A DNA stretch of 64,000 nt from Fistulifera solaris (GCA_030295235.1 AP026120.1:1-64000); one strand, 5' to 3'; positions 11,730-55,182 are shown, numbered from the stretch's first letter. Numbers and translations: made by a program. Notes: generated from the letters alone by a model not told the origin.

Positions 11730-11794
11730 TTGAAATAAAAGGATTCGAACCTTTAGCATACCCTCTTATCACATCTTGTGATAAGATTATTTCA
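11730..11794 (-). ncRNA. tRNA-like element (t-element 1) between rps14 and atp6
   Basis: TGAAATA/TATTTCA acceptor, AAAGG-TTCGAAT-CCTTT T-arm, 10-bp hairpin in place of D/anticodon arms. Confidence 0.7.
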
Positions 11795-11828
11795 ATTATA
11801 CGTGTAGTTTCATAGCAAAAAAAGAAGT

Positions 11829-12126
11829 TTACCAACTAGATTTTTTCATTCCATTTATTTTACCTAGTCGAATCAATTTTAACAGAACATGTCTTGAAAA
11901 ATTAGTATTTTTATTAAATCTTTTTTGTTTATAGTTGCGACACATCGATTTGAAAATTTAGTTTTATTATTAGTTGTGGATAATAAATTCAATTTTAGAT
12001 ACGCATTCCATCGTACTAAAGTAAAAAAATTTGAGTTTTTGTAAATAGATTTTAATATTAAATATTTTTTTCTATCTCAGAAAATTGTGATCTTAATTTT
12101 TTATCTTTTGCAAATAATTTTTTCAT
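11829..12126 (-). CDS. rps14: ribosomal protein S14 (frameshifted copy)
   Basis: KDKKLR, NRCV, GMKKSSW. Confidence 0.9.
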
Positions 12127-12128
12127 GC

Positions 12129-12691
12129 TTATTTTTTATTAAAAACTTCCCATGGTGAAATAAACTCAAAAGTTCTATATTCTTGAGCTAATTCTACATT
12201 TTCGTATACAACTCGATTTTTTGTTACATTGTACCGTGCTTCAGTATATCCACTTAAAGGAAAATCTTTTCTTAACGGGTAACCTTGAAAACCATAATCA
12301 GTTAATAAACGAGTCAAACTTGAATGATTAAGAAAAAATATACCATACATGTCAAAATTTCAGATTCCCACCATCCTGCTGCTGGAAATACTTTTTGAAT
12401 AGAGTGTACTGGAGTTAATTCATCTGTTAAAATTTTTATTCTAACTCTTCCATTGTAATGAATACTTAAAAGATCGTAGACAACTTGAAATCTATATAAG
12501 TTTTCAGGATAGTCTACTCCTGAAACACAAGTTAAAACTTTAAATCGATAATTAAAATGATTTTTAAGAACTTGCATCACGTTTACTATGGAGTTAGTTG
12601 GAGTTAAAAATACTGCTTCTTCTTCATTATAAAGTTCGAATCTTACGATTGGTAATATTTTAATTATATTTTCACTTATAGATAATAGCAT
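12129..12691 (-). CDS. nad9: NADH dehydrogenase subunit 9 (one frameshift)
   Basis: [21 protein letters not shown]. Confidence 0.95.
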
Positions 12692-12701
12692 TTATATTAA
12701 T

Positions 12702-12892
12702 TTAAAATTTTAAATATTGTTTTTTATATTTAACAGACTGATAAGAAGTTTTAGTAAAATTAGTGGTTTGTTTTTTGTTTAAAAAAAGTTTTTATGATCT
12801 TTATCATATGCTTTAAATTGCTTAAAAGCTGGACTAGATAAAGTAGTTAAATTTATACTTCCATCAGATAATAACTGAATATATTTTGTCAT
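12702..12892 (-). CDS. rpl31: probable ribosomal protein L31 (~63 aa, one T-run frameshift)
   Basis: QLLSDGS...DKDHKN...KYKKQY resembles mitochondrial bL31. Confidence 0.6.
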
Positions 12893-12896
12893 TTTT

Positions 12897-14094
12897 TTAC
12901 CTATCAATTTCACCAAAAACAACGTCTAGAGTTCCAATAATAGTTACAACATCAGCTAGCATGTGGCCACGTGACATATAGTCTAAAGCTTGCAGATGAC
13001 CAAATCCTGGTGCTTTTATTTTACACCTGTAAGGTTTATTAGTATTGTCTGAAACTAAATAAACACCAAATTCACCTTTTGGTGCTTCAGTTGCTGTATA
13101 AGTTTCATTAGCTGGAATAGAAATTCCATTTGTGTAAATTTTAAAATGATGAATCATACCTTCCATAGAAGATTTCATTTCAGTTCTAGTCGGTGGGCAT
13201 AGTTTATTGTCATTTGTCTTAACTAATCCTTCTGGAATCTTATTTAAACATTGTGAAATTATATTTAATGACTCTTTCATTTCAATAATTCTAATTAAAT
13301 ATCTATCATAACAATCACCGTTTGTTCCAACTGGAATAGCAAAATCAATTTGATCATATATCTCATAAGGTTGACTTTTTCTTAAATCCCAGTTTATACC
13401 CGAACCTCTTAGCATTACTCCACTAAATCCCCAATCCATAGCGTCTTTAGAAGAAACAACTCCTACATCAATTAGTCTCTGTTTCCAAATTCGGTTTTCA
13501 GACAACATTTCCTCAATTTCTAATAATCTATTAGTAAACTGCTCTACAAAAATATAAATATCTGAAAGCAAACCTTTAGGCAGATCTACATGAACACCAC
13601 CAGGTCTAAAATAAAAAGCATGCATTCTTGCACCAGAAACTCTTTCGTAAAACTCCATCAATTTTTCACGCTCCTCGAAACCCCAAAGCATAGGAGTCAT
13701 AGCACCAACATCCATAGCATGGCAGCCGACTGCAAGCAAGTGATTTAAAATACGAGTAATTTCGGCAAATATTACACGAATATATTTCGCTCTTTCAGGA
13801 ATTTTACAATTCAATAATTTTTCAACAGCTAAGCAATATGAATGCTCTTGAGCTAGCATAGACACATAATCTAATCGATCAAAATATGGCAAAGCTTGTA
13901 AATAATTTTTATATTCTATTAATTTTTCGGTTCCTCTATGTAAAAGTCCGATATGTGGAGTTGCTTTTATCACAGTTTCACCTTTTAACTCAAGTAATAA
14001 TCTTAAAACACCGTGCGCAGCTGGATGCTGTGGTCCGAAATTTAAAGTAAAATTTTTTACTTTTTTTAATAAATCCTTTTTTTTAAAAAGTCAT
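12897..14094 (-). CDS. nad7: NADH dehydrogenase subunit 7
   Basis: [15 protein letters not shown]...DVVFGEIDR. Confidence 0.97.
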
Positions 14095-14131
14095 AAAATA
14101 TATTTAAAATACAAATTTTATTATAGACTGC

Positions 14132-14205
14132 TAAGCTTAAGTAGACTTGAACTACCGACCTTGCGCTTATCAGGCACATGCTCTAACCAACTGAGCTATA
14201 AGCTT
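14132..14205 (-). tRNA. trnI: tRNA-Ile(GAU)
   Basis: CTGATAA loop. Confidence 0.95.
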
Positions 14206-14213
14206 TTAACTTA

Positions 14214-15012
14214 TTAATTAAACTCTAAATTTGACATTATCACATAATGATACTGTACAGATGGAACTGCAAATAAAACAATAGGCATAAATCCATGGTT
14301 AACACCACAAATCTCACTACACTGTCCAAAGAAAAGTCCAAATCTCTTAATGAATAAATTAGCTTGATTCAATCTTCCTGGGCAAGCATCTACTTTTATT
14401 CCAAAAGATGGGATAGTCCAACTATGTAATACGTCTACTGCAGTAATTAACAATCGCAAGTGGGTATTTGTAGGTAAGATAACACGTTTATTTGTTTCTA
14501 AATTCCGAAAAAAACCCATTGCATTTTTTTTCTTTTAATGACTCATCAGTAAGCATATAACAAGAATATTTTAAATGCTGAGTACCTGAACAAGAGTTGA
14601 AATCAGAAATTTCGTAACTCCAATACCATTGGTGACCTAAAATCTTTAAAGTTAACTCAGGATTTGAAATTTCGTCTAAACTATACAAAAGAGAAAAAAG
14701 ACGGTGAAGCTATACTTAAAAGAATTAAAGCAGGAACAGAAGTCCAAATAATTTCTAATGCGTTATTATGAGTAAAATTACTTGGTTTACTGTTACTAAA
14801 TTCCATAAAGTTTCTTATAACTAAAAATAATAACCAAGCTACTACAGTCACAATCGCAATAATTACAAACAATAAATGAAGGTTAAATAAAAAAATACCC
14901 TCCATAACTGTAGTGGCAGGATCTTGAAATCCTAATTGATATGCTGAACTACTATCTCCGAACCAATTACTTATAATTATAAACACAGGGATAGAAGTGT
15001 TTTAAAAAACAT
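14214..15012 (-). CDS. cox2: cytochrome c oxidase subunit 2 (homopolymer frameshifts)
   Basis: [28 protein letters not shown]. Confidence 0.95.
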
Positions 15013-15051
15013 TTTTATTATTTAATATTCAATTTAACGAAAGAATATTTT

Positions 15052-15455
15052 TTAGTCCCAGTCTAACGCACGAACATACCAGACGTAAAAAAACCCAATA
15101 CCTAACTCAAATAAGAAATCAATCATAGACCAAAAACCTAATAGATCTAATTTAGCTAAAGAAACACACCAAGGGATTAAAAACATAATTTCGATATCGA
15201 AAATAATGAATAAAATAGCAATTACACAAAATCGAACGTCAAATGTATGACGAGTATCTTCGTAAGGCTCAAAGCCACACTCATAAGCCGATAATTTTTC
15301 AGGATCGGGATTTTGTCTAACTAAAAAATAAGACGCACCAATAATAACAATGGTTAATAAAACAGCAATTACTAAAAAAGTTAAAAGAACAGAATATTCT
15401 TTTTTTATTAAAGAGTCTTCGAAAAAAACATCATATTATAATCAAAATTTGCCAT
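15052..15455 (-). CDS. nad3: NADH dehydrogenase subunit 3 (not in ORF track; frameshifts near 5' end)
   Basis: PDPEKLSAYECGFEP, FIIFDIE, ALDWD*. Confidence 0.93.
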
Positions 15456-15461
15456 GAAAAT

Positions 15462-16291
15462 TTATTTATTACTCCACCAGTATACATTTATAAATAAGAA
15501 TAACCAAACAACATCTACAAAATGCCAATACCAAATGGCAGATTCAAAACCAAAATGGTGTCTATTTGTAAAATGATTTAGTACAATACGAATAAATGAA
15601 ACTAATAATGCAATAGTTCCAACGAAAACGTGAAATCCATGAAATCCAGTTGCCATGTAGAAACAAGAACCATATATACCATCACTAATAGTAAAAGGTG
15701 CATTTACATACTCGAAACCCTGTAAACAAGTAAAAATAGTAGCTAAAACTAGAGTGAAAAGTAAAGCTACTAAAGTATGCTTTTTAGCTCTTGATAATAA
15801 AGCATGATGAGCCCAAGTTACGCTAGCACCTGAAGTTAATAAAATAAAAGTATTTGTTAAAGGAACAGTGTAAGTACTAATAGTACTAATAGCTTTTGGT
15901 GGCCACACTCCACCTAAGTTATAGGTTGGAGCGATACTAGAGTGAAAAAATGCCCAAAAGAATGCAAAAAAAACATAATCTCCGAAACAATAAATAAAAT
16001 CATTCCTAATCGTAGACCTTTTTGAACAGTAACAGTATGTGTATCCTCGAATGTAGCTTCTCGAACAATATCTCGCCACCAGGTATACATTGTGTATAAA
16101 ACAATCAAAAATCCTGTAATTAAAAGATTCCACCCTCCTATAAATTTATGCATATATAAAACAACTCCGCTAGTTAACATGAAAGCACCAAAAGACGCAA
16201 AAATAGGCCAAGGGCTAGGATCTACTAGATGATAAGAATGAGTTGTTTTTAAATATTTAAATTGTTCTTTTAGTAATAAAGTATTAGACAC
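15462..16291 (-). CDS. cox3: cytochrome c oxidase subunit 3 (GTG start; frameshifted copy)
   Basis: [19 protein letters not shown]. Confidence 0.96.
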
Positions 16292-16352
16292 TTTACCGCT
16301 TTTATTTTTTTTTACTCGAGTTAATATTTATTAAATTATGTAAGATATTCAT

Positions 16353-16446
16353 TGTAAGAAATAAGATTTGAACTTATAATTAAGGAACTTTTTAACATTC
16401 TTATTAGTTGTCTCATTTGTAACATTTTTGCTACCAACTTTCTTAC
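16353..16446 (-). ncRNA. tRNA-like element (t-element 2) between rps13 and cox3
   Basis: GTAAGAA/TTCTTAC acceptor plus A, ATAAG-TTCAAAT-CTTAT T-arm, non-canonical interior hairpins. Confidence 0.65.
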
Positions 16447-16470
16447 TTTAAAAAAAATAAAATTTTTAAA

Positions 16471-16820
16471 TTATAAAAATCGCTTTTTGGAAGTGTTCGC
16501 ATTCGTATGAGTTCTTTGACCTCGTACGGGTAATCCTGCCGCAATCTTATCCCTCTATAAGATTTTATAGAAAATAAACGATTTTTATCTAAAGATTTTA
16601 TTTTTTTTAAATCACCTAAAACCATTATATTAGAAGATTCCAAAGACTGAGCAAGTTTCGAAATCTGCTCTTTAGTTAAATCTTTTATTTTTAAATTTTT
16701 TGAGAAACCTAATTTTTTACAAATTAGATTCGAATTAGATTGTCCTATACCAAAGACACGTGTCATTGCGAAAGAAACCGACTTATTTTCCGGTAACTCT
16801 GATTCAAATAAATAAACCAT
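16471..16820 (-). CDS. rps13: ribosomal protein S13 (one frameshift)
   Basis: VFGIG, YRGIR, (G)LPVRGQRTHTNA. Confidence 0.92.
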
Positions 16821-18285
16821 TTAAAAATAAAGTAATTCTACTAAATAATTTACACTCATATGAATTGAGCTTAAAAATATATTAGGATAAATACCAATAA
16901 TGAAAGTACCTAAAATTAAAGGTAAAAATAATATACTTTCTCTAAAACTTAAATCTAAAAATGTTTGAGTGTACTGAATTTTTAAATTTCCAAAAGCAAT
17001 TCTGTTAAATAGCCATAATGAATAAGCTCCACTAATAATTACTCCAGTTGCTCCTAGGAAAGTAATTGTTGTATTAACTTTAAATGAACCTACTAATATT
17101 AAAAATTCACCGACAAAACTACTTGTTCCTGGAAAAGCGATATTAGCAATGGTAAAGAACAGAAATACTGCTATATATAAAGGCATAACTGTGGCAAGTC
17201 CTCCATAGTACTGAACAATTCTAGTTCTGTATCGATCATAAACAACTCCAATTACAAGAAATAAAGCACTTGCAACAAAACCATGACTTAAGCTTTGTAA
17301 AATAGCTCCCTCAAGACCTATATTATTGAAACTAAAAATACCAATTATAACTAGATTCATGTGAGCTATGGATGTATAAGCAATAATTCGTTTAAAATCA
17401 GTTTGACGAATAGCAGTAAACGAAGTGTAAATAATTCCAACAGCAGCAATAGTATACACAAGTGGAGTAAAAAAAAACGAAGCTTTAGGAAAAGAGGAAG
17501 AGAAAAACGAATAAAACCATAGGTCCCTAATTTTAATAACACTCCAGCTAAGATAACCGAACCTGCTGTAGGGGCTTCGACATGTGCTTCAGGTAACCAT
17601 AAATGAACAGGAAGCATAGGAACTTTACTAGCGAATGCTATAAAAAAAGTTAACCACATTATTTTTTGTTCGATATCTGAAAACCCAAATGTTAATAAAG
17701 TTTCGTAATCAGTAGTTCCAACCTGGCTAAATATATAAAGTATCGATAAAAGCATAACGACTGATCCTAATAAAGTATATAAGAAAAAATAGTAAGATGC
17801 TAGTATTTTTCGTTCTCTAGAACCCCAAATACCAATAATCAAAAACATTGGAATCAGTACACTTTCAAAGAAAATATAAAAAAGTAATAAATCTAATACA
17901 CAAAAAGTTCCAATTAAAAAGAAATCTAATACTAAAAAAGCTATTAAAAATTCTTTTACATTTGTACTAACGGAATTCCAGCTAGTTAAAAGACACAAAG
18001 GTATTAATAAAGTTGTTAAAAGTAAAAAAAATAAAGAAATTCCATCTACACCTAAAATAAAATTTATATTAAAGTTAGGAAACCAAAATAGTTTAACCAC
18101 AAATTGAAAAGAACCTACAGAATTTTGAAAAAACCCCAAACTAGCAAAGAGGTAGTAAAAGATAAAGAAGCTGAAGTTAAGGCTATAAGCTTCATCAATT
18201 TCAGTTTTTTTGCAGGGGTAAATAATAATAAAACAATCCCAAAAATTGGGAATAATAAAGTATATATTAATAAATTTTTTACCAT
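16821..18285 (-). CDS. nad4: NADH dehydrogenase subunit 4 (frameshifted)
   Basis: HLWLPEAHVEAPTAGSVILAG. Confidence 0.96.
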
Positions 18286-18298
18286 AATTTTTGTTTAT

Positions 18299-18372
18299 TA
18301 CACTCTATAGGATTTGAACCTATGACCATCAGTTTAGAAAACTGTTGCTCTATCCAACTGAGCTAAGAATGC
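18299..18372 (-). tRNA. trnR: tRNA-Arg(UCU)
   Basis: TTTCTAA loop. Confidence 0.93.
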
Positions 18373-18396
18373 ATCTATTTTTAAAATATAAATCAT

Positions 18397-18470
18397 TAAT
18401 GAAAAAGGGACTCGAACCCCTGACATTTGGATCATGATTCCAACGTTCTAACCAACTGAACTATTCCATC
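18397..18470 (-). tRNA. trnM: tRNA-Met(CAU), probably elongator
   Basis: ATCATGA loop. Confidence 0.88.
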
Positions 18471-18471
18471 T

Positions 18472-20191
18472 TTATTTATTAAAAGGATAATCGATAGGAA
18501 GACTTGAATAAGTAACAGGATCCACAAATAGAGCCAAAGAAATCTTATAACAAGCTAAATATAATAAAGTTGGGTTACAAAATAAAAAAATTAGCGCAAA
18601 TATTAAAACACTTAAAATAATAGTTTTTTCTGAGTTTATAGGATAATATAATTTTCCTACTAAAATATTTTCGAAGTATAAAACCTTTATTAGTCTAATA
18701 TAATAAAAAGTAGAAACCACACTAAATACAATACTAGCTAAAGCTGGTAAATAATAAGAATTAATAATTAAAGGCAAAAATACACCCAATTTAGCTAAAA
18801 ATCCAACAAGAGGTGGAATTCCTGCAATAGAGAACATAGTTAGAGATAATGCTAAAGAAAGAGGTATATTTGATTTTCTTAGTAATGCGAGATCACCTAA
18901 TTCTTTATTGTATTTAGTCGTAATATTTTTTCTTTTTAATCTTAAAAACAATAGAATCGACCACACGCATAAACTAGAAATCATATAAATTATCATATAA
19001 ACTAATGCCATTTGAACTCCAGTAAAAGTGTCGGAACCCATTGCAATTAATATGTAACCCATGTGACTAGTAGAACTATACGCTAATAAAGTTTTTAATT
19101 TTCGTTGCTTTAATCCTCCAAACGAACCAACGAAAATACTAAAAACTCCAATAGATAAGAAATAAAAGTCCCACCATTCTTTTATCTCAAAGAAAGCCAT
19201 GTGACAAAGTCTGATTAGAACTACCAGTATACTTAATTTAGTAATTACTGCAAAGAATATCGTTGAACTAGTAGGAGATCCTTCATAAACATCTAACGAC
19301 CATAAATGAAACGGAGCTGCTGCTAATTTGATAAATAAACTAAATAAAATTAAAGTTAAACCTATTTCAACAAAATTAAAATAGTCGATGGTATAACCAA
19401 ACAATAAATCGTCAAAAGTCAAATCGTAAACTTCAATAAGTCTAGCGTAACTTGCTCTAAAGCTAAATGAAAAAAGCCACGACTCAAAGAAAAAACTTGG
19501 TAAATAGCCTATTCCAGGAAACCATTGTACCATAACATAATCATAAATAGAAGCATTATACATTCGATAAAAATCAAAAAAATTTATAGATCCAGTAAAG
19601 CCGTAAATAAATGAACTTCCTAATAAAAAAAAAGGCAGACGAAACGGCACCAGTAATAAAATATTTTATACCACTTTCAACCGAATAACTTGATGTTTTT
19701 TTGAAAGAAGCTAAAACATATAAAGCAAGACTAGATAATTCGATTGCTAAATAAGTAAGCAATAAATCATTACTACTACACATGATCAGTAAACCTAAAA
19801 CAGAAAATAAAATAATAATTAAATATTCAAATGATGTTAACTTTTGCTCTTTTAAAGAATCGGCAACAAATAGAAAATAAAGCCCTGAAAAAAAGCATAA
19901 CCAAAAGCGTGTAAAAGATGCAAGAGAGTCATAGATTACAGCGTTACTAAATGACAAAATATCCATGAAATACGATGCTGAAGTAAGATCATCGTTTAGA
20001 ATTAAATAGCATGCCATAAAAAGTGTTAAAGCCATACACTCACTAACCGCCTTTTGTAACATTAGCCCATTTGAATTATAAGTGATCAAAGTAATCACTA
20101 TTAATATATAAATAATACTAAGAGTAATAAAATACTCAGGAAATACAGTAAAAGACTGTAAAGAAACTACATTATATAAATTATTTACCAT
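18472..20191 (-). CDS. nad2: NADH dehydrogenase subunit 2 (frameshifted)
   Basis: KLAAAPFHLWSLDVYEGSP, AGIPPLVGF. Confidence 0.95.
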
Positions 20192-20796
20192 CAAATTTGT
20201 CAAAGAAGAAACTCGAATTTCGAGATAATTGTTTAGAAATAGACTGTTCTAATATTTGGCTTTTATTAAAATTATTTGTTAAATAAACAACTCCAATTAA
20301 AACAAGTAATAATGTAAAACCAGCAATTAAAAAATGTAAAACAAAGTAAGAATATAAAACGTGACCATAAACTTCGACGTCGGATACAGAATCAACCATG
20401 TCATACCAGTTTTGATATTTATTAAAGTAAAAAGAATTTGCTAAAAAATTAGTATTAAAATGATCAGAAACTAAATTTAACAAAGGAATAAGGAAGAAAA
20501 TGAAAAAAACAAAACCAATAGGAATATATTTTAAAGCATTCTTTGATAAATTGATTGATTTTGTATCTAACATCATAATAGCAAATAAAAATAAAACAGC
20601 TATTGCACCAACATAAATCACAATGAAAAGTAGAGCTAAGAACTCACATTCTAACAAAAATAGTAAGAACGATGAAAAAATAAAACACCCAACAAGGAAT
20701 AGTAAAGAAAAAACGGGATGTTTTGGAAACAATAACCATAAAAGCACAAAAAACTAAAAGAGAGGAAAATATTATAAACAATGTATTAGAATTCAT
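20181..20796 (-). CDS. nad6: NADH dehydrogenase subunit 6 (frameshift near 5' end)
   Basis: HPVFS, IYVGAIAVLFLF. Confidence 0.93.
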
Positions 20797-20899
20797 TTAA
20801 TAAAATATATAATTTATAGATTATAGAAGAAAAAAGATTGAAATTTTTTTATAAAATGTTACAAATTTTTTATTAGTATACATTTTTACGAGAATTAAA

Positions 20900-20988
20900 C
20901 AATTAAAATTTTTTAAATGATTCCCTACAAATAGTATTTGAAAAAAATTTTAATAAACACTTGAGTTCAAAACGAGTTCAGGTTAAAG
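20900..20988 (-). rRNA. rrn5: divergent 5S rRNA, possibly permuted; 3' end could extend to ~20837
   Basis: ACCTGAACTCGTTTTGAACTCAAGTG matches helix III/loop C consensus; TACTA..TAGGGAA loop E-like. Confidence 0.65.
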
Positions 20989-21037
20989 ATATGAAAATAG
21001 GGATTGAACCTATAAAATCACCTAATTGATTTTCATA
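20989..21037 (-). ncRNA. tRNA-like element (t-element 3) between rns and rrn5
   Basis: TATGAAA/TTTCATA acceptor, ATAGG-TTCAATC-CCTAT T-arm, single small hairpin. Confidence 0.65.
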
Positions 21038-21039
21038 TT

Positions 21040-22525
21040 TTTCCAGCTACACGTTCCCGTACAGCTACCTTGTTACGACTTCATCCAAATCGCTAATTTT
21101 TCAATCGGTTAGAACAAAGTCAAACCTTCAAGTAAAACTAACTTTCTGCATGTGACGGGCGGTTTGTACAAGGCTAATTGACATATTCACCGCAACATTC
21201 TGATTTGCGATTACTAGTGATTCCAACTTCATGTAAACGAGTTGCAGCTTACAATCCGAACTGGGAAAACTTTTAGGAGATTAACAAAAATTTAATTTTA
21301 GTTACTTTTTGTAATTTTCATTGTAGCACGTGTGTAGCCCAATTCATAAGGGTCACATTGACTTGGCTTAATTCTTCCTTCCTTCAACTTATAATTGACT
21401 GTAACTTTAAAGCTTTTTCTAAAATATTTTAGAAAAGTAAATAATTAAAGTCAAGAGTTGCGTTCGTTAAGGGAACTAACCAAACATCTCACGACACGAA
21501 CTGACGACAGTCGTGCAACACCTGTAATATTTCATTTTTTTAATTATCAGCAATAAATAAAAATAAAAATTTAATATTATGTCAAGAATTGGTAAGGTTT
21601 TGCGCGGATTATCGCATTAAACCACATGCTCCACCACTAGTATTAGCCCCCGTCAATTTCTTTGAGTTCCAACCTTGCGATCGTACTCCTCAGGCGGAGT
21701 GTTTATAGCGTTAGCTTAAAAATCTAAATAAATTTTAATTTTTACATTAAATTTCAACACTCATAATTTACAGGTATGGACTACCAGGGTCTCTAATCCT
21801 GTTTGCTACCCATACTTTCGTCCCTCAACGTCAGTTTTTACCAAAAAGTCGCCTTCGCTAATGGTATTCCTTTATATATTTACAGATTTTACCCTTTCGT
21901 ATAAAATTCTACTTTTCTGTATAAAACTCAAGCAAAGCAGTATTACAAGCTGTTTTAAAGTTGGGCTTTAAATTTTAACAAGTAACTTACTTTACCGTCT
22001 ACGGACTCTTTACGCCCAGTCATGATGAATAACGCTTGCCCTTCCCGTATTACCGCGACTGCTGGCACGAGTATTAGCCAGGACTAATTCTTAAGTAATG
22101 TCATTATCATTCTTAATAAAGAAGTTTACAATCAAAAAAACCGTCTTTCGTTCATTTAGTATTGCTGGATCAGACTTTCGTCCATTGTCCAATATTCCTC
22201 ACTGCTGGCCGAAAACTCAGCCTGGACCTTATTTCAGTTCCAGTGTGGTTGATCATCCTCTAAGACCAACTAAAGATCAAAGGCTTGGTAAGCTATTAAA
22301 TTTACCAACTACCTAATCTTACGCAGACCCATCTTTTAGCAGAAATACAAAATAACATCGTAAAACTTTTAAAATATTCATGATTTATGATTTTGTCATG
22401 AACTAAAAGGTAGCAGTCTGCGCTTTCCTCACCCGTTCGCCACGAAAATAATTCCGTTAGACTTGCATGTGTAAAGCATACTAGTAGCGTTCATTCTGAG
22501 CCAGAATAAAACTCATATTATAATA
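21040..22525 (-). rRNA. rns: small subunit rRNA (ends approximate)
   Basis: GTGCCAGCAGTCGCGGTAATAC, AAGTCGTAACAAGGTA. Confidence 0.97.
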
Positions 22526-25378: not shown

Positions 25379-25452
25379 GGCGAATAATAGGATTTGAACC
25401 TATGACCTCTAGAACCACAATCTAGCACTCTAACCAACTGAGTTATACCGCC
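25379..25452 (-). tRNA. trnH: tRNA-His(GUG)
   Basis: TTGTGGT loop, encoded G-1. Confidence 0.93.
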
Positions 25453-29148: not shown

Positions 29149-29151
29149 AAA

Positions 29152-29222
29152 TGTAAGAGATAAGAGTTGAACTTATATTTTCAGGGCATGAGCCTGACTG
29201 GTTACCGTTACCACACCCTTAC
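29152..29222 (-). tRNA. trnM: tRNA-Met(CAU), probably initiator
   Basis: TCAGG-CTCATGC-CCTGA anticodon arm. Confidence 0.85.
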
Positions 29223-29315
29223 AAAGGAAAAAATGCATAGTGAGAATAGGATTATGCCAACAAGAAATTGAAAAAATTCCAAGTATAGCAAAACCTACAA
29301 ACTCAACTATTTAAA

Positions 29316-31007
<1,692 letters not shown>

Positions 31008-31014: not shown

Positions 31015-34000
31015 ATCCTTCTTTTTTTCTCTATAAGGGTTAAATTTTATTTATATTTATGTTCATATTAGTTCTAACTTTGCATTTACTAATTTATTTC
31101 ATTTTTTTAATTTTTATAAAATACTTGATTTTTCTAGATAGCTTTAACAATCTAACAAAGTTTAAGTTCCTTTTATAAATGGTAGTTAATGAAATTTATC
31201 TTTTTTTACCCCCTTTTCAATCCCTACCCTTTCTTTTTCCTCTATAAGGGTTAAATTTTATTTGTATTTTTATTCATCTTAATTTTAGCTTTGCAGAGAT
31301 TAGCTTATCTCATTTTTTTTAATTTACTAAAAGGAAAGTTTAGGTTTTGATTTTTATTAAAATTTTAATCATTTTGGAAATTTTGAATTATGTTTTTCTG
31401 TTTTGACCAATTCTTTTATTTATTTGCATTTTAGTCTATTTTAGGTATTTTCCAATTTTTTGGCCTAATGTTGATTGGTTTTTCTTTTTCTTCTATAAGA
31501 ATTGAATTTTATTTGTATTTTATTCATCTCAATTTTAGCTTTACAATTCTTAGCTTATTTTATTTTTTTAACATGGCGTAGGATAAAACCCACATTTTGA
31601 TTTTTGCCGCGATTTGAGCCTTTAATTTATTGACTCAAATCCTGTAGATTTCATAATTTTTGAATTCTTCTTTTTCCTTATTTTCATTTCCAATTTTGAT
31701 ATATTATTTAGCCAAAAAATTAAATTGAATTATGTTAACTTAATAGAAATAAGCATGAAATTGAAACATAGATGAGAATGTAATGGTTAAATAAAGATGT
31801 AAAAAATTAATACTTTATGCATTTAATATATGTATATTATATATATTTATGTTAATATCCTATGTTTTTATATTAAAGTTATTATATAACAACAGGAACA
31901 ACTTCTAAAATAAGTGTGGGTTATAAATAATTTGATCTTTTCTTCTTAAAACTTTTTTACTCAGTCGTTTCTTTTTTTATAGTATAGGAATATTAAATTT
32001 TAGTCATTTTAATTTTAACTTTACACTTATTATCCTATATAATACCCTTTTTTGTAAATGATTTTATGTATTGGGGATTCTTATGATTTAAACCTCTATA
32101 ATTGATCTAGCTCTAACTTGTTAGCTTCTTTTTGTAGTGTACTTCCCTATATTCCCCCTTTTTCAATTCCTACCCCTTCTTTTTCCTCTATAAGGGTTAA
32201 ATTTTATTTGTATTTTTATTCATCTTAATTTTAGCTTTGCAGAGATTAGCTTATCTCATTTTTTTTAATTTACTAAAAGGAAAGTTTAGATTTTGATTTT
32301 TATTAAAATTTTAATCATTTTAGAAATTTTGAATTATGTTTTTCTGTTTTGACCAATTCTTTTATTCATTTGCATTTTAGTCTATTTTAGGTATTTTCCA
32401 ATTTTTTGGCCTAATGTTGATTGGTTCTTCTTTTTCTTCTATAAGAATTGAATTTTATTTGTATTTTATTCATCTCAATTTTAGCTTTACAATTCTTAGC
32501 TTATTTTATTTTTTAACATGGCGTAGGATAAAACCCACATTTTGATTTTTGCCATGATTTGAGCCTTTAATTTACTGACTCAAATCCTGTAGATTTCATA
32601 AATTTTGAATTCTTTTTTTCCTTATTTTCATTTCCAATTTTGATATATTATTTAGCCAAAAAATTAAATTGAATTATGTTAACTTAATAGAAATAAGCAT
32701 GAAATTGAAACATAGATGAGAATGTAATAATTAAATAAAGATGTAAAAAATTAATACTTTATACATTTAATATATATATATATTTATGTTAATACCCTAT
32801 GTTTTTATATTAAAGTTATTATATAACAATTTTAGTCATTTTAATTTTAACTTTACACTTATTATTCTATATAATACCCTTTTTGGTAAATTACTTTATG
32901 TATTGGGATTCCTATGATTTAAACCTCTAGAATTGATCTAGCTCTAACTTGTTAGCTTCTTTTTGTAGTGTACTCCCTATATTCCCCCTTTTTCAATTCC
33001 TACCCCTTCTTTTTCCTCTATGAGGGTTAAATTTTATTTGTATTTTTATTCATCTTAATTTTAGCTTTGCAGAGATTAGCTTATCTCATTTTTTTTAATT
33101 TACTAAAAGGAAAGTTTAGATTTTGATTTTTATTAAAATTTTAATCATTTTGGAAATTTTGAATTATGTTTTTCTGTTTTGACCAATTCTTTTATTTATT
33201 TGTATTTTAGGCTATTTTATAGGTATTTTCCACTTTTTTTAGCCTAATGCCGATTGGTTCTTCTTTTTCTTCTATAAGGATTGGATTTTATTTGTATTTT
33301 ATTCATCTCAACTTTAGCTTTACAATTCTTAGCTTATTTTCTTTTTTAACATGGCATTTAGGATAAAACCCACATTTTGATTTTTGCCATGATTTGAGCC
33401 TTTAATTTATTGACTCAAATCCTGTAGATTTCATAATTTTTGAATTCTTTTTTTCCTTATTTTCATTTCCAATTTTGATATAGTATTTAGCCAAAAATTA
33501 AATTGAATTATGTTAACTTAATAGAAATAAGCATGAAATTGAAACATAGATGAGAATGTAATAATTAAATAAAGATGTAAAAAATTAATACTTTATGCAT
33601 TTAATATATGTATATTATATATATTTATGTTAATATCCTATGTTTTTATATTAAAGTTATTATATAACAACAGGAACAACTTCTAAAATAAGTGTGGGTT
33701 ATAAATAATTTGATCTTTTCTTCTTAAAACTTTTTTACTCAGTCGTTTCTTTTTTTATAGTATAGGAATATTAAATTTTAGTCATTTTAATTTTAACTTT
33801 ACACTTATTATCCTATATAATACCCTTTTTTGTAAATGATTTTATGTATTGGGATTCTTATGATTTAAACCTCTATAATTGATCTAGCTCTAACTTGTTA
33901 GCTTCTTTTTGTAGTGTACTTCCCTATATTCCCCCTTTTTCAATTCCTACCCCCTTCTTTTTTCCTCTATAAGGGTTAAATTTTATTTGTATTTTTATTC

Positions 34001-34538
34001 ATCTTAATTTTAGCTTTGCAGAGATTAGCTTATCTCATTTTTTAATTTACTAAAAGGAAAGTTTAGATTTTGATTTTTATTAAAATTTTAATCATTTTGG
34101 AAATTTTGAATTATGTTTTTCTGTTTTGACCAATTCTCTTATTTATTTGCGTTTTAGTCTATTTTAGGTATTTTCCACTTTTTTTGGCCTAATGTTGATT
34201 AGTTCTTCTTTTTCTTCTATAAGAATTGAATTTTATTTGTATTTTATTCATTTCAATTTTAGCTTTACAATTCTTAGCTTATCTTATTTTTTAACATGGC
34301 GTAGGATAAAACCCACATTTTGATTTTTGCCGCGATTTGAGCTTTTAATTTATTGACTCAAATCCTGTAGATTTCATAATTTTTGAATTCTTTCTTTTTC
34401 CTTATTTTCATTTCCAATTTTGATAATAGTATTTAGCCAAAAATTAAATTGAATTATGTTAACTTAATAGAAATAAGCATGAAATTGAAACATAGATGAG
34501 AATGTAATGGTTAAATAAAGATGTAGAAAATTAATACT
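31015..34538 (+). repeat. tandem array of ~830-950 bp units (left arm)
   Basis: Unit landmark CCCCTTTT..CAAT.CCTACCC recurs at ~31209, 32155, 32984, 33931. Confidence 0.93.
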
Positions 34539-34632
34539 TATAGGTTAAAATCTAGATGAACAAAGATAAAATTCAACATCTTAAAAAACATATAAAAATT
34601 GATAAATAGTTGAATTTTGAACCTTTGTACAA

Positions 34633-37070
34633 AAGGCTCAAATCATGACAAAAATCAAAATGTGGGTTTTATCCTACGCCATGTTAAAAAATAAGATAAG
34701 CTAAGAATTGTAAAGCTAAAATTGAAATGAATAAAATACAAATAAAATTCAATTCTTATAGAAGAAAAAGAAGAACTAATCAACATTAGGCTAAAAAAGT
34801 GGAAAATACCTAAAATAGACTAAAACGCAAATAAATAAGAGAATTGGTCAAAACAGAAAAACATAATTCAAAATTTCCAAAATGATTAAAATTTTAATAA
34901 AAATCAAAATCTAAACTTTCCTTTTAGTAAATTAAAAAAAATGAGATAAGCTAATCTCTGCAAAGCTAAAATTAAGATGAATAAAAATACAAATAAAATT
35001 TAACCCTTATAGAGGAAAAAGAAGGGGGTAGGAATTGAAAAAGGGGGAATATAGGGAAGTACACTACAAAAAGAAGCTAACAAGTTAGAGCTAGATCAAT
35101 TCTAGAGGTTTAAATCATAGGAATCTCAATACATAAAGTCATTTACCAAAAAGGGTATTATATAGGATAATAAGTGTAAAGTTAAAATTAAAATGACTAA
35201 AATTGTTATATAATAACTTTAATATAAAAACATAGGGTATTAACATAAATATATATATTAAATGTATAAAGTATTAATTTTTTACATCTTTATTTAACCA
35301 TTACATTCTCATCTATGTTTCAATTTCATGCTTATTTTTATTAAGTTAACATAATTCAATTTAATTTTTTGGCTAAATAATATATCAAAATTGGAAATGA
35401 AAATAAGGAAAAGAAGAATTCAAAATTTATGAAATCTACAGGATTTGAGTCAATAAATTAAAGGCTCAAATCATGGCAAAAATCAAAATGTGGGTTTTAG
35501 CCTAATGTCATGTTAAAAAAGAAAATAAGCTAAGAATTGTAAAGCTAAAGTTGAGATGAATAAAATACAAATAAAATCCAATCCTTATAGAAGAAAAAGA
35601 AGAACCAATCGGCATTAGGCCAAAAAAGTGGAAAATACCTAAAATAGACTAAAATGCAAATGAATAAAAGAATTGGTCAAAACAGAAAAACATAATTCAA
35701 AATTTCCAAAATGATTAAAATTTTAATAAAAATCAAAATCTAAACTTTCCTTTTAGTAAATTAAAAAAATGAGATAAGCTAATCTCTGCAAAGCTAAAAT
35801 TAAGATGAATAAAAATACAAATAAAATTTAACCCTTATAGAGGAAAAAGAAGGGGTAGGAATTGAAAAAGGGGGAATCTAAGGAAAAGAGTACACTACAA
35901 AAAGAAGCTAACAAGTTAGAGCTAGATCAATTATAGAGGTTTAAATCATAGGAATCTCAATACATAAAGTCATTTACCAAAAAGGGTATTATATAGGATA
36001 ATAAGTGTAAAGTTAAAATTAAAATGACTAAAATTTAATATTCTTATACTATACAAAAGAAACGACTGAGTAAAAAAGTTTTAAGAAGAAAAGATCAAAT
36101 TATTTATAATCCACACTTATTTTAGAAGTTGTTCCTGTTGTTATATAATAACTTTAATATAAAAACATAGGGTATTAACATAAATATATATATTAAATGT
36201 ATAAAGTATTAATTTTTTACATCTTTATTTAACCATTACATTCTCATCTATGTTTCAATTTCATGCTTATTTTTATTAAGTTAACATAATTCAATTTAAT
36301 TTTTTGGCTAAATAATATATCAAAATTGGAAATGAAAATAAGGAAAAGAAGAATTCAAAATTTATGAAATCTACAGGATTTGAGTCAATAAATTAAAGGC
36401 TCAAATCATGGCAAAAATCAAAATGTGGGTTTTAGCCTAATGCCATGTTAAAAAAGAAAATAAGCTAAGAATTGTAAAGCTAAAGTTGAGATGAATAAAA
36501 TTCAAATAAATAAAAGAATTGGTCAAAACAGAAAAACATAATTCAAAATTTCCAAAATGATTAAAATTTTAATAAAAATCAAAATCTAAACTTTCCTTTT
36601 AGTAAATTAAAAAAAATGAGATAAGCTAATCTCTGCAAAGCTAAAATTAAGATGAATAAAAATACAAATAAAATTTAACCCTTATAGAGGAAAAAGAAGG
36701 GGGTAGGAATTTAAAAAGGGGGAATATAGGGAGTACACTACAAAAAGAAGCTAACAAGTTAGAGCTAGATCAATTATAGAGGTTTAAATCATAGGAATCT
36801 CAATACATAAAGTCATTTACCAAAAAGGGTATTATATAGGATAATAAATGTAAAGTTAAAATTAAAATGACTAAAATTTAATATTTTTATAATATAAAAA
36901 AGAAACGACTGAGTAAAAAAAGTTTTAAGAAGAAAAGATCAAATTATTTATAGCCCACACTTATTTTAGAGTTGTTCCTGTTGTTATATAATAGCTTTAA
37001 TATAAAAACATATGGTATTAACATAAATAAAATATATATATATATATATTAAATGTATAAAGTATTAATT
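34633..37070 (-). repeat. same tandem units in inverted orientation (right arm)
   Basis: Reverse-complement landmark GGGGTAGGAATT.AAAAAGGGGG ends at ~35047, 35874, 36722. Confidence 0.93.
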
Positions 37071-37099: not shown

Positions 37100-37951
37100 A
37101 TGCCAATTAAAAATAAAGAAAGAGAACTAGTTACTTCTTCTGAAAATTTGAAAAATTTACCTGATGAGAATCTGCTTTTTTCTCCAAGTTCTAATTTACA
37201 AATTAATGAAGAAAATCCAATAGATGTCTATACTTTGTCAACTAGAAATGATCTTAATTTTAGTTCTTTGTTTAAAAGTCAGACCAATGGTACTGTCGAT
37301 TTAACTGATGCTATATTTCCAAATTCTGCGCGACAAGTACGTTACAAATCTGAAGATGTGGATATTGAAAATTTAAAGACCCACACATTTGAATTGTACC
37401 AGTTAAATTTAAAAAAAAAAGAAGGACAAAGTAACCAACTTGCTTTTCGTGATTTTACCGAAATTGAAAATTCATCTGAATTTAAGGATTCAGAACTTTT
37501 AGCCAAATATAATGCCTTAACTACAGAAGAACCTTATCGCACATCATATATTAATTCTCACATTGACGTTTCTTTAATGAGTAATGAAGCTTTTTTAACA
37601 TTAGCAGAGCAATCTAGAATGTTGATAACCAGAATTTTAGCATTTGTAAAAGTCGATGACTTATCTTTTACATCATTACTACGCTATCTTCGAGTGCTAG
37701 CAGATCCAACCTCTATTAACGAACTCGATATCTTTGTTGATTCAAAAGAGTATTTTAAAAAAGCTCTTCTTAGTTGTTATAATTTATTTTTATATAGTTC
37801 GACTTTCGTAGCTTGTACATTATTTCAAGATAATAATGTGGATCCTAACCGATTAAAATATGCGGCGATTGCAATGACTTTAATTAAAATACTTCATAAT
37901 ACTAACTTATCAGTAGGTATCGCGAAAACAGAAACTAATTACTTTTTTTAA
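37100..37951 (+). CDS. orphan ORF283 (probably joins 37956-38261 as ~386 aa)
   Basis: 283-codon open frame with ATG in AT-rich DNA; stop follows a T7 run. Confidence 0.65.
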   Translation: MPIKNKERELVTSSENLKNLPDENLLFSPSSNLQINEENPIDVYTLSTRNDLNFSSLFKSQTNGTVDLTDAIFPNSARQVRYKSEDVDIENLKTHTFELYQLNLKKKEGQSNQLAFRDFTEIENSSEFKDSELLAKYNALTTEEPYRTSYINSHIDVSLMSNEAFLTLAEQSRMLITRILAFVKVDDLSFTSLLRYLRVLADPTSINELDIFVDSKEYFKKALLSCYNLFLYSSTFVACTLFQDNNVDPNRLKYAAIAMTLIKILHNTNLSVGIAKTETNYFF

Positions 37952-37955
37952 AACT

Positions 37956-38261
37956 GTGCGAGAATCATTACAATTAAAATATTACATTCCTAAACTATCA
38001 GAGTATATGTTACCCAAGTTACCAGAGTTTTTAAAAACTAGTTTTAAAAAAATGTCGCCTTTTGTAAAACGATCTTGTTTATTTGTTATACAATCGACTA
38101 GTCTTGCGATTTGTGGTTATGTGATTAATGAAAATTCAGGCAATCTTTTAACGATTTCACAAAATAATACTCATCAGTTAAATCTAAGCTTTACTCAAAG
38201 TCGGAATGATTGGTTTGATAAATTTTTAGAAATTTTATTTTTTAGTTTTTCTAATATCTAA
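37956..38261 (+). CDS. probable C-terminal part of orphan ORF283
   Basis: One-base change in the T7 run joins the frames. Confidence 0.5.
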   Translation: MRESLQLKYYIPKLSEYMLPKLPEFLKTSFKKMSPFVKRSCLFVIQSTSLAICGYVINENSGNLLTISQNNTHQLNLSFTQSRNDWFDKFLEILFFSFSNI

Positions 38262-38299
38262 TGTTTATTTAAATTTGTTAATTCTACACAAATCATAAA

Positions 38300-41135: not shown

Positions 41136-41735
41136 TTAATATCGTTTAGATGTTAATGATCCAACAGGACATAGATCGATAACGTTTCCTGATAATTCAG
41201 AAGATAAAACTAAATCCACGTAAGTACCAATTTCACTCTGTGTTCCACGTCTAAACATACCAAGTTCTTCAACTCCAGCTATTTCTTTAGCAAATCTTAC
41301 ACATCTAGTACAGTGAATACACCGGGTCATTACTGTTTTAACAATAGGCCCTAAATCTTTATCACTTACTATCCGTTTAAATTTATAAAATCGTCTCTTA
41401 GTAAAACCAAAGAATAAAGATTGATCTTGTAAATCACAATCTCCTCCCTGATCACAAATAGGACAATCTAATGGGTGGTTTAATAATAGAAATTCTAAAA
41501 TATTTTCTCGGGCTTTTTTAATTAAAACACTATCATGATAAACACTTGTATTATATAAAGCCGCACTAGCGTTTGTAGCACAGGATACAACAGGTTTCAT
41601 AGAATTCTTTAATTCTACTAGACAAACTCTACAATTTCCAGCTATAGATAAATCATTGTGGTAACAGTAGTGTGGTACTGAAATACCACATGCTATTAAA
41701 TAAGCAATTAATGAAGTTTTATTATTTATTTTCAT
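41136..41735 (-). CDS. nad11a: NADH dehydrogenase subunit 11, N-terminal Fe-S part
   Basis: [35 protein letters not shown]. Confidence 0.96.
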
Positions 41736-55117: not shown

Positions 55118-55182
55118 TTGAAATAAAAGGATTCGAACCTTTAGCATACCCTCTTATCACATCTTGTGATAAGATTATTTCA
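55118..55182 (-). ncRNA. t-element 1 (second copy)
   Basis: Identical to 11730-11794. Confidence 0.7.

What the first reader, a model, noticed from the sequence alone, without database searches (positions are those of the whole stretch)
11730..21037. Three tRNA-mimic 'punctuation' elements at tRNA-less junctions of the main transcript
Seen: three minus-strand intergenic elements (11730-11794, 16353-16446, 20989-21037). Each has a perfect 7-bp acceptor stem stacked on a perfect 5-bp T-stem with a canonical G-TTCRAnn-C loop, but the interiors are unrelated, of different length and lack a valid D-arm and anticodon arm. All three are co-oriented with their flanking genes and sit at junctions with no real tRNA (rps14|atp6, rps13|cox3, rns|rrn5), while many other junctions carry true tRNAs. 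Established: RNase P (including protein-only PRORP) and RNase Z mainly recognise the acceptor/T-arm domain; animal mtDNA uses tRNA punctuation and plant mitochondria use t-elements. Inference: these are maintained processing signals that cut the polycistronic RNA. I am not aware of this being described in diatom mitochondria. Perfect stems with three different sequences argue against simple decay.
Basis: partly seen in the sequence, partly recalled or inferred. Interest (0 to 1): 0.85.

Follow-up and report, generated by a model that had tools for sequence, protein, structure and literature searches.

The report
tRNA-gene remnants kept as minihelices
Three short elements in this algal mitochondrial genome are leftovers of tRNA genes that lost their decoding arm but kept the part that tRNA-cutting enzymes recognise, so they probably still mark where the long transcript is cut, as known tRNA-like elements do in plant mitochondria.

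Summary
All three elements sit at the stated coordinates, each with a perfect 7-bp acceptor stem stacked on a perfect 5-bp T stem and a TTCRANN loop. A strict scan finds 7 such structures per genome (4 tRNAs and these 3), against 0.01 expected from shuffles.

They are not de novo mimics. Each derives from a tRNA gene that has an intact copy elsewhere in the genome:
- E1 comes from trnQ (30 of 32 stem and T-arm letters).
- E2 comes from an initiator-like trnM (28 of 32).
- E3 comes from the trnM that follows rns directly in 4 of 6 relatives.

The closest relative (L005) has an intact trnQ where E1 sits.

Plain decay fits poorly, though. The interiors are randomised, every stem change keeps pairing, and no other tRNA fragments exist in the genome. 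E2 abuts the cox3 AUG, and E3 takes the trnM's place at the rns 3' end. A related clade also carries a minihelix at cob|nad2 with covarying T stems.

Best reading (0.55): relocated tRNA genes left top-half remnants that still work as RNase P/Z cutting signals, like plant t-elements. No RNA-end data could be obtained.

The parts
11730..11794 (-). E1: trnQ(uug)-derived minihelix, lying 34 nt after the rps14 stop and 32 nt before the atp6 ATG. The interior is a perfect hairpin unrelated to trnQ.
   Evidence: 30 of 32 stem and T-arm letters equal trnQ; next best tRNA 24; blast E 5.5e-7. A second-pass copy lies at 55118-55182.
16353..16446 (-). E2: minihelix derived from the initiator-like trnM(cau), between rps13 and cox3, with a 62-nt unrelated interior.
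   Evidence: 28 of 32 letters equal the trnM at 29151-29223; next best 21; E 3.5e-5. A second-pass copy lies at 59745-59838.
20989..21037 (-). E3: 49-nt acceptor + D-like hairpin + T arm, starting 4 nt after the conserved rns 3' GCTGGA. It probably derives from the trnM(cau) that follows rns in relatives.
   Evidence: The acceptor matches the L042 trnM in 6 of 7 pairs, with pair 1 flipped A:T to T:A.
30810..30881 (-). Intact trnQ(uug), the parent or paralogue of E1, now directly upstream of cox1.
29151..29223 (-). Intact trnM(cau), initiator-like, the parent or paralogue of E2, between cox1 and cob.
18397..18470 (-). Intact trnM(cau) of the type that follows rns in relatives; here it lies between nad2 and trnR(ucu). 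Likely parent lineage of E3.
16350..16352 (-). cox3 start codon ATG, directly abutting the discriminator A16353 of E2.
   Evidence: (reading frames) with the one-base correction of the A run at 16305 from X1 contigs. L005 shows the same N-terminal extension.
16471..16473 (-). Probable true rps13 stop (TAA), 24 nt before E2. The assembled ORF instead runs to 16443, inside E2, because of a likely one-base assembly error.
   Evidence: Ribosomal_S13 profile positions 113-128 match the other reading frame.
21031..22522 (-). rns (SSU rRNA). Its 3' end lies immediately 5' of E3.
20908..20988 (-). 5S-like stretch with a loop-C-like motif, directly 3' of E3. The identification is weak.
   Evidence: mtPerm-5S 19.5 bits, gathering score 39, E 0.48. 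The Rfam alignment itself runs 20908-21013 and so overlaps the E3 T arm.

Best explanation
E1, E2 and E3 are what is left of three tRNA genes: trnQ(uug), an initiator-like trnM(cau) and a second trnM(cau). Working copies of these genes now sit elsewhere in the genome. At the old junctions each gene lost or scrambled its anticodon arm, and mostly its D arm too. Each kept an intact 12-bp acceptor/T-arm stack with a canonical T loop and a discriminator base. That 'top half' is what RNase P, RNase Z and the CCA-adding enzyme read.

The elements are therefore most likely still excised from the long minus-strand precursor RNA. That would separate rps14 from atp6 and rps13 from cox3 (leaving cox3 mRNA starting at its AUG), and would form the 3' end of SSU rRNA. 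This use is probably why they have been kept.

Shown here: the structure, the tRNA origin, the synteny, the pairing-preserving changes and the exact abutments.
Inferred: cleavage by RNase P and RNase Z, and selection for it.
For: 1. Structure far beyond chance: 3 non-tRNA hits against 0.01 expected.
2. Origin. E1 matches trnQ at 30 of 32 stem and T-arm positions and E2 matches the trnM at 29151 at 28 of 32; the next best tRNAs score 24 and 21.
3. Synteny. trnQ follows rps14 within 400 nt in L005 (87% nad7 identity, the closest relative) and in L056. A trnM follows rns and precedes nad6 in L042, L045, L048 and L049.
4. Every stem difference from the parent keeps or improves pairing. In E1, G3:C70 became A:T. 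In E2, G7:C66 became A:T and G6.T67 became A:T. In E3, acceptor pair 1 is flipped A:T to T:A relative to the L042 trnM.
5. The interiors show no similarity to the parents; alignment scores are at or below the shuffle mean.
6. E1 and E2 are the only significant tRNA-derived fragments outside tRNA genes in this genome, so there is no background of random tRNA debris.
7. Boundaries. The E2 discriminator abuts the cox3 ATG. E3 starts 4 nt after the rns GCTGGA, where relatives start their trnM 2-8 nt after it.
8. Analogues in relatives. A minihelix at cob|nad2 in L008, L009, L015 and L016 has an invariant 6-bp acceptor, 44 of 44 cells paired and 3 of 5 T-stem pairs changed on both sides (5 of 500 shuffles reach this), with unalignable interiors. 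trnV upstream of nad7 has lost only its anticodon arm in L025 and L028. L033 has a minihelix between rps13 and cob.
9. Precedent. Plant t-elements coincide with mRNA ends and carry CCA-like tails (PMC1920247, passages seen).
Against: - No RNA-end evidence. All four runs that were laid are assembled contigs, and the RNA contigs are sparse.
- The elements are young. L005 (87% nad7 identity) has an intact trnQ at the E1 site and no E2 counterpart. L081 (86%) goes from rps13 straight to cox2, with no E2 or cox3 there. Survival of the stems by recency is therefore possible.
- Most 'compensatory' changes are G:C to A:T. AT-biased mutation in a 27.6% GC genome would tend to give these even without selection.
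- The interiors may have been replaced by one or two indel events rather than by long divergence.
- Many junctions on the same transcript have neither a tRNA nor an element: rnl|rns, nad6|nad2, nad4|rps13, cox3|cox2, nad7|nad9 and nad9|rps14. Cutting is therefore not needed at every junction.
- Detection required the minihelix, which is an ascertainment bias. One relic in a relative (L043, the 5' half of trnD) has no minihelix.
- The parent of the E3 T arm is ambiguous.
Confidence: 0.55

Rival explanations
1. Plain tRNA pseudogenes. The elements are neutral scars of recent gene-order rearrangement (duplication and loss). Their middles were hit by one or two indels, and their ends have not yet had time to decay. 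Any cutting by RNase P or RNase Z is incidental and not selected.
For: - Intact tRNAs occupy the same sites in relatives, and intact paralogues exist in the genome.
- All three elements lie at points where gene order differs from L005 or L081.
- The closest relatives lack E1 and E2, so the elements are young.
- G:C to A:T changes fit AT-biased mutation.
- The scan can only find relics that still have the minihelix.
- A relic without a minihelix exists in L043.
Against: - In three independent relics all 12 pairs remain Watson-Crick, while the interiors are at random-level similarity to the parent.
- All 3 changed stem pairs in E1 and E2 keep or improve pairing. By my own rough combinatorial estimate, if the changed G/C sites were placed at random the chance of this is about 0.14 for E1 and 0.05 for E2.
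- The flip of acceptor pair 1 in E3 is a transversion pair, which AT bias does not explain.
- No other tRNA debris exists in the genome.
- The covarying cob|nad2 minihelix in four relatives shows that such remnants can be held by selection.
Confidence: 0.3
2. Stand-alone tRNA-like RNAs with a job other than punctuation. They would be excised, CCA-tailed small RNAs that act in regulation, priming or another pathway, like the unexplained tRNA-X loci of the eustigmatophyte Vischeria.
For: The architecture is the same as that described for Vischeria tRNA-X1 to X3: derived from a standard tRNA gene, anticodon arm variable or missing, other parts conserved, function unclear (PMC13449250, passage seen). 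The elements keep every feature needed for tRNA-type end processing.
Against: - The three elements share nothing beyond the generic top half, and their interiors differ in length and sequence (33, 62 and 17 nt), which argues against a shared specific function.
- The positions fit punctuation: abutting the cox3 AUG and at the rns 3' end.
- No conservation across species could be shown for E1-E3.
Confidence: 0.1
3. Chance inverted repeats in AT-rich spacers, or aberrant but still decoding tRNAs.
For: The genome is 27.6% GC. Relaxed scans yield many spurious stem pairings. At a lowered threshold (-ps80) ARAGORN -mt calls E1 a 'Leu(aag)'.
Against: - Shuffles give 0.01 strict hits against 3 observed.
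- There is clear homology to trnQ and trnM.
- No element has an anticodon arm with a 7-nt loop.
- ARAGORN in four modes, and Rfam at its gathering score, call none of them. The -ps80 run also calls spurious genes on both strands.
Confidence: 0.02

Closest known systems
Plant mitochondrial t-elements (wheat: Hanic-Joyce, Spencer and Gray 1990, seen only as a reference in PMC1920247; Arabidopsis: Forner et al. 2007, PMC1920247, abstract and passages seen)
   Same: tRNA-like folds without a canonical cloverleaf but with a conserved T (pseudouridine) arm and an acceptor-like stem. They lie next to mRNA or rRNA ends in polycistronic precursors and are thought to be, or shown in vitro to be, cut by RNase P and RNase Z.
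   Different: The lineage is a diatom-like stramenopile, not a land plant. Here the parent tRNA gene and the ancestral tRNA position can be named for each element. The elements are reduced to the bare top half (49-94 nt). Cleavage and CCA tailing are shown for the plant elements but not tested here.
tRNA punctuation of animal mitochondrial transcripts, and tRNA pseudogenes left by tandem duplication and random loss (punctuation model as stated in the abstracts listed; the duplication-loss details are recalled)
   Same: tRNA-shaped structures between genes direct endonucleolytic release of the neighbouring RNAs. Rearrangements leave tRNA remnants at old positions. In E2 the downstream mRNA would start at its AUG.
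   Different: Animal punctuation uses working tRNAs at most junctions. Here many junctions have nothing, and the three elements cannot decode.
tRNA-X1, X2 and X3 loci in Vischeria (eustigmatophyte) mitogenomes (PMC13449250, one passage seen)
   Same: The host is also an ochrophyte alga. These are mitochondrial paralogues of a standard tRNA gene whose anticodon arm varies or is missing while the rest is conserved. The authors infer selection but name no function.
   Different: The Vischeria loci all come from trnK(uuu) and are conserved across a genus. E1-E3 come from trnQ and two trnM genes and are so far seen in one genome only. Here the positions suggest a processing role. That paper's Note S5 and supplementary figures were not read.
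Canonical tRNA genes (Rfam RF00005)
   Same: Acceptor stem, T stem, T loop and discriminator, with sequence homology to trnQ and trnM.
   Different: No anticodon arm, and no D arm in E1 and E2. Scores are below the family threshold.

Membership tests
Canonical tRNA (RF00005 / ARAGORN) | Four-arm cloverleaf scoring above the family threshold | tested here: not met
   Rfam: E1 22.9 bits, E3 15.6 bits, E2 no hit, against a gathering score of 29. ARAGORN in standard, intron, -mt and -mtx modes calls none of them on its strand.
Canonical tRNA (RF00005 / ARAGORN) | Anticodon arm with a 7-nt loop and a usable anticodon | tested here: not met
   The interiors are 33, 62 and 17 nt and none forms a 5-bp stem with a 7-nt loop. 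The folds show other hairpins.
tRNA-gene remnant (pseudogene) | Sequence homology to a specific tRNA gene | tested here: met
   E1 matches trnQ at 30 of 32 positions and E2 matches the trnM at 29151 at 28 of 32. Blast E-values are 5.5e-7 and 3.5e-5. For E3 only the acceptor and the synteny support homology (12 of 14 acceptor letters match the L042 trnM, by eye). The source of its T arm is ambiguous.
tRNA-gene remnant (pseudogene) | An intact tRNA at the same junction in relatives | tested here: met
   E1: trnQ lies within 400 nt after rps14 in 2 of 17 loci with an rps14 hit, including the closest relative L005. E3: a trnM lies between rns and nad6 in 4 of 6 loci with an rns 3' end. E2: not met; the one relative with rps13|cox3 adjacency (L056) has no tRNA there.
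t-element / tRNA-like processing signal | tRNA-like fold with an intact T arm and acceptor stem, co-transcribed with flanking genes | tested here: met
   All 12 pairs are Watson-Crick, the T loop is TTCRANN and G53:C61 is present. The elements are on the same strand as all flanking genes. Co-transcription itself is inferred.
t-element / tRNA-like processing signal | RNA 5' or 3' termini coincide with the element borders | not testable with these tools
   Only Logan contigs were available, and these cannot show RNA ends.
t-element / tRNA-like processing signal | Cleavage by RNase P or RNase Z, and CCA addition to the excised RNA | not testable with these tools
   This needs in vitro assays or small-RNA sequencing.
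t-element / tRNA-like processing signal | Structure maintained by selection (covariation across species) | tested here: inconclusive
   No other genome with E1-E3 was found. Comparison with the parent tRNAs shows only pairing-preserving changes. An analogous family in relatives does covary.
Vischeria-type tRNA-X loci | A paralogue of a standard tRNA gene with a variable or missing anticodon arm, conserved across species | tested here: inconclusive
   Paralogy and loss of the anticodon arm are met. Conservation across species could not be tested for E1-E3.

The most novel reading that the evidence does not exclude
Diatom mitochondria repeatedly turn relocated tRNA genes into minimal 'top-half' minihelices (acceptor stem plus T arm, as short as 49 nt). 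Selection then keeps these as punctuation marks. This genome shows three independent cases at once. One of them would set the 3' end of the small-subunit rRNA, and perhaps the 5' end of a 5S-like RNA. Relatives show further cases, including one with covarying stems. Together they would form a natural series of minimal RNase P/Z substrates and a general rule for how gene order can change without losing transcript processing.
Probability: 0.4. Interest if true: 0.6.

Novelty: new member of a known kind. Interest (0 to 1): 0.45.

Why it matters
If these elements are cut, transcript punctuation in diatom mitochondria would partly rest on fossil tRNA genes. That would explain how tRNA genes can move without disturbing maturation of the neighbouring mRNAs and rRNAs. 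It would also extend the plant t-element principle to stramenopiles.

The elements are natural minimal substrates, an acceptor/T-arm stack with three different interiors. They could show what organellar RNase P (protein-only or RNA-based) and RNase Z need in vivo.

There is a practical point for annotation. tRNA finders miss such elements, and elsewhere they may be mis-called as odd tRNAs: ARAGORN calls the mutated trnV in L021 'Pyl(cta)'. The claim is directly testable with end-mapping RNA data from one culture.

Tried and rejected
- **RNA evidence.** The look-up of sequencing runs listed 19 runs, all kept as Logan contigs. I laid X1-X4. X1 has flat depth of about 200 and is probably DNA of the same organism; it only served to confirm the sequence and to fix homopolymer errors. 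The metatranscriptome contigs (X2-X4) are sparse and partly from relatives. They say nothing about RNA ends or about cover at the elements.
- **Own genome.** Not held.
- **Rest of the L005 contig**, which might show its rns junction. The record is not held.
- **The MAG holding L081.** It contains no further mitochondrial contig.
- **Closer relatives.** An E1 3' pattern in genome contigs gave 0 matches. nad7 in viral contigs gave 0 relatives. nad6 in genome contigs gave 0 relatives.
- **A 5S-like motif in relatives.** None was found in the 84 loci, so the rrn5 label could not be checked by comparison.
- **An E2 counterpart in the L005 rps13-atp8 spacer.** There is no convincing homology.
- **Odd decoding tRNAs.** E1-E3 are not called by ARAGORN with introns allowed or in metazoan-mitochondrial modes. 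Calls appear only at a noise-level threshold.
- **Relaxed stem scan of the window**. It was too noisy to use.
- **The E3 T arm derived from trnM by point changes.** This stays ambiguous, because the T arms of trnR and of the tRNA at 25379-25451 share the same stem letters.
- **Literature.** Searches found no paper describing such elements in diatom mitochondria. Most subscription-journal papers are not in that library.

Full report
**What the window is.** It is an AT-rich (27.6% GC) mitochondrial genome of about 43.3 kb that has been read past its own start. Positions 43319-64000 repeat 1-20607 at 99.5% identity, and the differences are mostly indels. Many genes are frame-broken as assembled: atp6, nad9, cox3, nad4, nad2 and rps14. 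Short-read contigs of run X1 correct single bases in homopolymer runs, so these breaks are assembly errors. None of the corrections falls inside the three elements. Gene content and 80 related metagenome contigs fit a diatom-like stramenopile mitochondrion. I did not verify the label 'diatom' against a named reference.

E1 (11730-11794), E2 (16353-16446) and E3 (20989-21037) each have a perfect 7-bp acceptor stem directly stacked on a perfect 5-bp T stem. Each also has a TTCRANN loop, a G53:C61 closing pair and a discriminator base.
- A strict scan for this architecture finds 7 sites in one genome unit: 4 true tRNAs and these 3.
- In 200 dinucleotide-preserving shuffles the mean is 0.01 sites, and 0 of 200 shuffles reach 3.
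- ARAGORN finds 23 tRNA genes per genome unit and Rfam adds a 24th at 25379-25451. Neither accepts the elements.
- E1 and E2 are identical in the second pass of the assembly, and X1 contigs agree letter for letter.

**Where the elements come from.** I compared the acceptor strands, T arm and discriminator (32 letters) with all 24 tRNAs of the genome.
- E1 matches trnQ(uug) (30810-30881) at 30 of 32 positions; the next best tRNA scores 24.
- E2 matches the initiator-like trnM(cau) (29151-29223) at 28 of 32; the next best scores 21.
- These two are the only significant tRNA-derived fragments outside tRNA genes in the whole genome (E 5.5e-7 and 3.5e-5). Everything else is at the level reached by shuffles.
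- E3 is less clear by sequence. Its acceptor is that of the trnM(cau) which follows the rns 3' end directly in relatives L042, L045, L048 and L049: 6 of 7 pairs equal the L042 gene and pair 1 is flipped A:T to T:A. Its short interior keeps a D-arm-like 4-bp hairpin.
- The window's intact copy of that trnM type lies at 18397-18470.

**Synteny.** I mapped genes on the 80 metagenome loci by tblastn and ARAGORN.
- Of 17 loci with an rps14 hit, 2 have trnQ within 400 nt downstream. One is L005, the closest relative at 87% nad7 identity; the other is L056.
- Of 6 loci with an rns 3' end, 4 have the order rns-trnM-nad6.
- For E2 there is no tRNA-bearing counterpart. L056 has rps13|cox3 with only an AT-rich spacer. 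L005 has rps13, a spacer, an atp8-like ORF, then cox3. L081 (86%) goes from rps13 straight to cox2.
- So the three elements sit where gene order differs from the nearest relatives, and two of them sit exactly where relatives have the working tRNA.

**Why plain decay is not the whole story.**
1. The interiors have no detectable similarity to the parent tRNAs; alignment scores are at or below the mean of 500 shuffles. The 32 stem and T-arm letters are 88-94% identical in E1 and E2.
2. Every change in the stems keeps or improves pairing: G3:C70 to A:T in E1, and G7:C66 to A:T plus G6.T67 to A:T in E2. If the changed G/C sites were placed at random, I estimate chances of about 0.14 and 0.05. These are my own rough combinatorial estimates, and AT-biased mutation favours such changes anyway. 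The E3 pair flip is a double transversion that AT bias does not explain.
3. No other tRNA debris exists in the genome.
4. The borders are exact.
   - After the X1 correction at 16305, cox3 starts at ATG 16352-16350, directly after the E2 discriminator A16353. L005 has the same N-terminal extension.
   - E3 begins 4 nt after the conserved rns GCTGGA, where relatives begin their trnM 2-8 nt after it.
   - As assembled, the rps13 ORF ends inside E2. The conserved S13 C-terminus is in another frame, which stops at 16473-16471, 24 nt upstream of E2.

**The same thing in relatives.** I ran a relaxed scan, allowing at most one G.U pair or mismatch in the 12 pairs, over 84 mitochondrial-looking loci (789,881 bases).
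- The 84 loci are L001-L080 plus L081, L085, L088 and L091. I left out the other 76 genome-contig loci, which are mostly alphaproteobacterial.
- The scan gives 305 hits covering 260 of 368 ARAGORN tRNAs, plus 9 non-tRNA hits. Ten block shuffles give 1-6 hits each.
- Four of the 9 form one family between cob and nad2 in L008, L009, L015 and L016. They share an invariant 6-bp acceptor, have unalignable interiors of different length, and have T stems that differ yet always pair. All 44 of 44 cells pair, 3 of 5 T-stem pairs changed on both sides, and 5 of 500 shuffles reach the observed score.
- Two more are a trnV(uac) upstream of nad7 that has lost only its anticodon arm, in L025 and L028. It is intact in L022, L034 and L043, and has a CTA 'anticodon' in L021.
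- L033 has a minihelix between rps13 and cob, whose T arm resembles that genome's initiator-like trnM at 14 of 17 positions (by eye).
- A counter-example also exists: L043 holds a 34-nt 5' half of trnD with no minihelix.
- These cases show that top-half remnants recur in this group, and that at least one is held by selection on structure.

**Mechanism.** The acceptor/T-arm stack is the part of a tRNA that RNase P, RNase Z and the CCA-adding enzyme measure and bind. This is established knowledge that I recall; the review PMC9181182 (passage seen) states that tRNA-like sequences can mature polycistrons outside opisthokonts and lists both RNase P types for stramenopiles. All three elements lie in one long same-strand gene block: trnQ, cox1, trnM, cob, trnS, nad5, tRNA, rnl, rns, E3, a 5S-like stretch, nad6, nad2, trnM, trnR, nad4, rps13, E2, cox3, cox2, trnI, nad7, nad9, rps14, E1, atp6. 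I therefore think it likely (about 0.7) that they are cut out of the precursor, whether or not this is selected. I think it somewhat less likely (about 0.55) that they persist because that cutting is useful. The case is strongest for E3, which would form the rRNA 3' end, and for E2, which would leave a leaderless cox3 mRNA.

**Evidence against a general need for punctuation.** Several junctions on the same transcript carry neither a tRNA nor an element. The elements are also young on the scale of the available relatives.

**What is known already.**
- Plant mitochondrial t-elements are the closest system: tRNA-like folds with a conserved T arm at mRNA ends, cut by RNase P/Z, and sometimes CCA-tailed (PMC1920247, abstract and passages).
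- A 2026 study of eustigmatophyte mitogenomes describes trnK-derived tRNA-like loci with missing or variable anticodon arms. The authors infer that these are selected, but their function is unknown (PMC13449250, one passage; its Note S5 and supplementary figures were not read).
- A 2025 survey of 70 diatom mitogenomes says tRNA genes were not analysed in depth (PMC12412971, passages).
- Three full-text searches found no description of such elements in diatom mitochondria. Subscription-journal papers are mostly outside that library.

**Verdict.** These are tRNA-gene remnants reduced to the top half. They are probably still used as RNase P/Z cutting signals, which makes them a new member of the t-element / tRNA-punctuation kind in a lineage where it has not been described. 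No RNA evidence could be obtained here. The decisive experiment, end mapping in one culture, is simple.

Noticed in passing
window 43319-64000 versus 1-20607: The window runs past the start of a circular genome of about 43.3 kb. The two passes differ by about 0.5%, mostly single-base indels in homopolymer runs. Many ORFs are frame-broken (atp6, nad9, cox3, nad4, nad2, rps14, rps13). Short-read contigs of run X1 correct at least 12 listed sites.
   Followed up: partly
window 25379-25451 (-): A 24th tRNA gene found by Rfam (55.6 bits) but missed by ARAGORN, lying between nad5 and rnl. Its discriminator C and the lack of any other His gene suggest trnH. The anticodon was not read.
   Followed up: no
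window about 31250-36680: A repeat region with one unit recurring about every 830-950 bases: four copies on the plus strand (near 31253, 32199, 33029, 33978) and three inverted copies (near 34872, 35701, 36547). Seen only through repeated hits in the relaxed scan.
   Followed up: no
window 20908-21013 (-): A weak match to the permuted mitochondrial 5S rRNA family (19.5 bits, gathering score 39), carried by a loop-C-like motif directly 3' of E3. The first hairpin of the Rfam alignment falls on the E3 T arm. No comparable motif was found in the 84 related loci.
   Followed up: partly
window 37100-39055 (+): Three consecutive plus-strand ORFs (283, 101 and 251 aa) with no Pfam match, next to the repeat region.
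   Followed up: no
L008 4218-4289, L009 3950-4022, L015 4332-4383, L016 4224-4289: A conserved minihelix between cob and nad2 in four related mitogenomes. It has an invariant 6-bp acceptor, covarying T stems and unrelated interiors. ARAGORN does not call it as a tRNA.
   Followed up: yes
L025 353-410, L028 4465-4522, L021 9937-10009: The trnV(uac) upstream of nad7 has lost its anticodon arm in L025 and L028. In L021 it carries CTA in the anticodon position, and ARAGORN calls it 'Pyl'. It is intact in L022, L034 and L043.
   Followed up: partly
L033 7481-7542: An acceptor/T-arm minihelix between rps13 and cob. Its T arm resembles that genome's initiator-like trnM, with the first stem pair flipped.
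   Followed up: partly
L081 1-5189: This contig, filed under a bacterial MAG, is a chimera. About 860 GC-rich bases are joined, inside the T arm of a trnM, to a mitochondrial stretch (trnR, nad4, rps13, cox2, trnI, nad7) 86% identical in nad7 to the window.
   Followed up: partly
L043 2187-2220 (-): A 34-base exact copy of the 5' half of trnD lying outside any tRNA gene. It is a tRNA fragment without a minihelix.
   Followed up: no
window 39343-40569 and 41136-41735 (-): The two domains of nad11 (the molybdopterin part and the Fe-S part) lie in separate ORFs about 570 bases apart.
   Followed up: no
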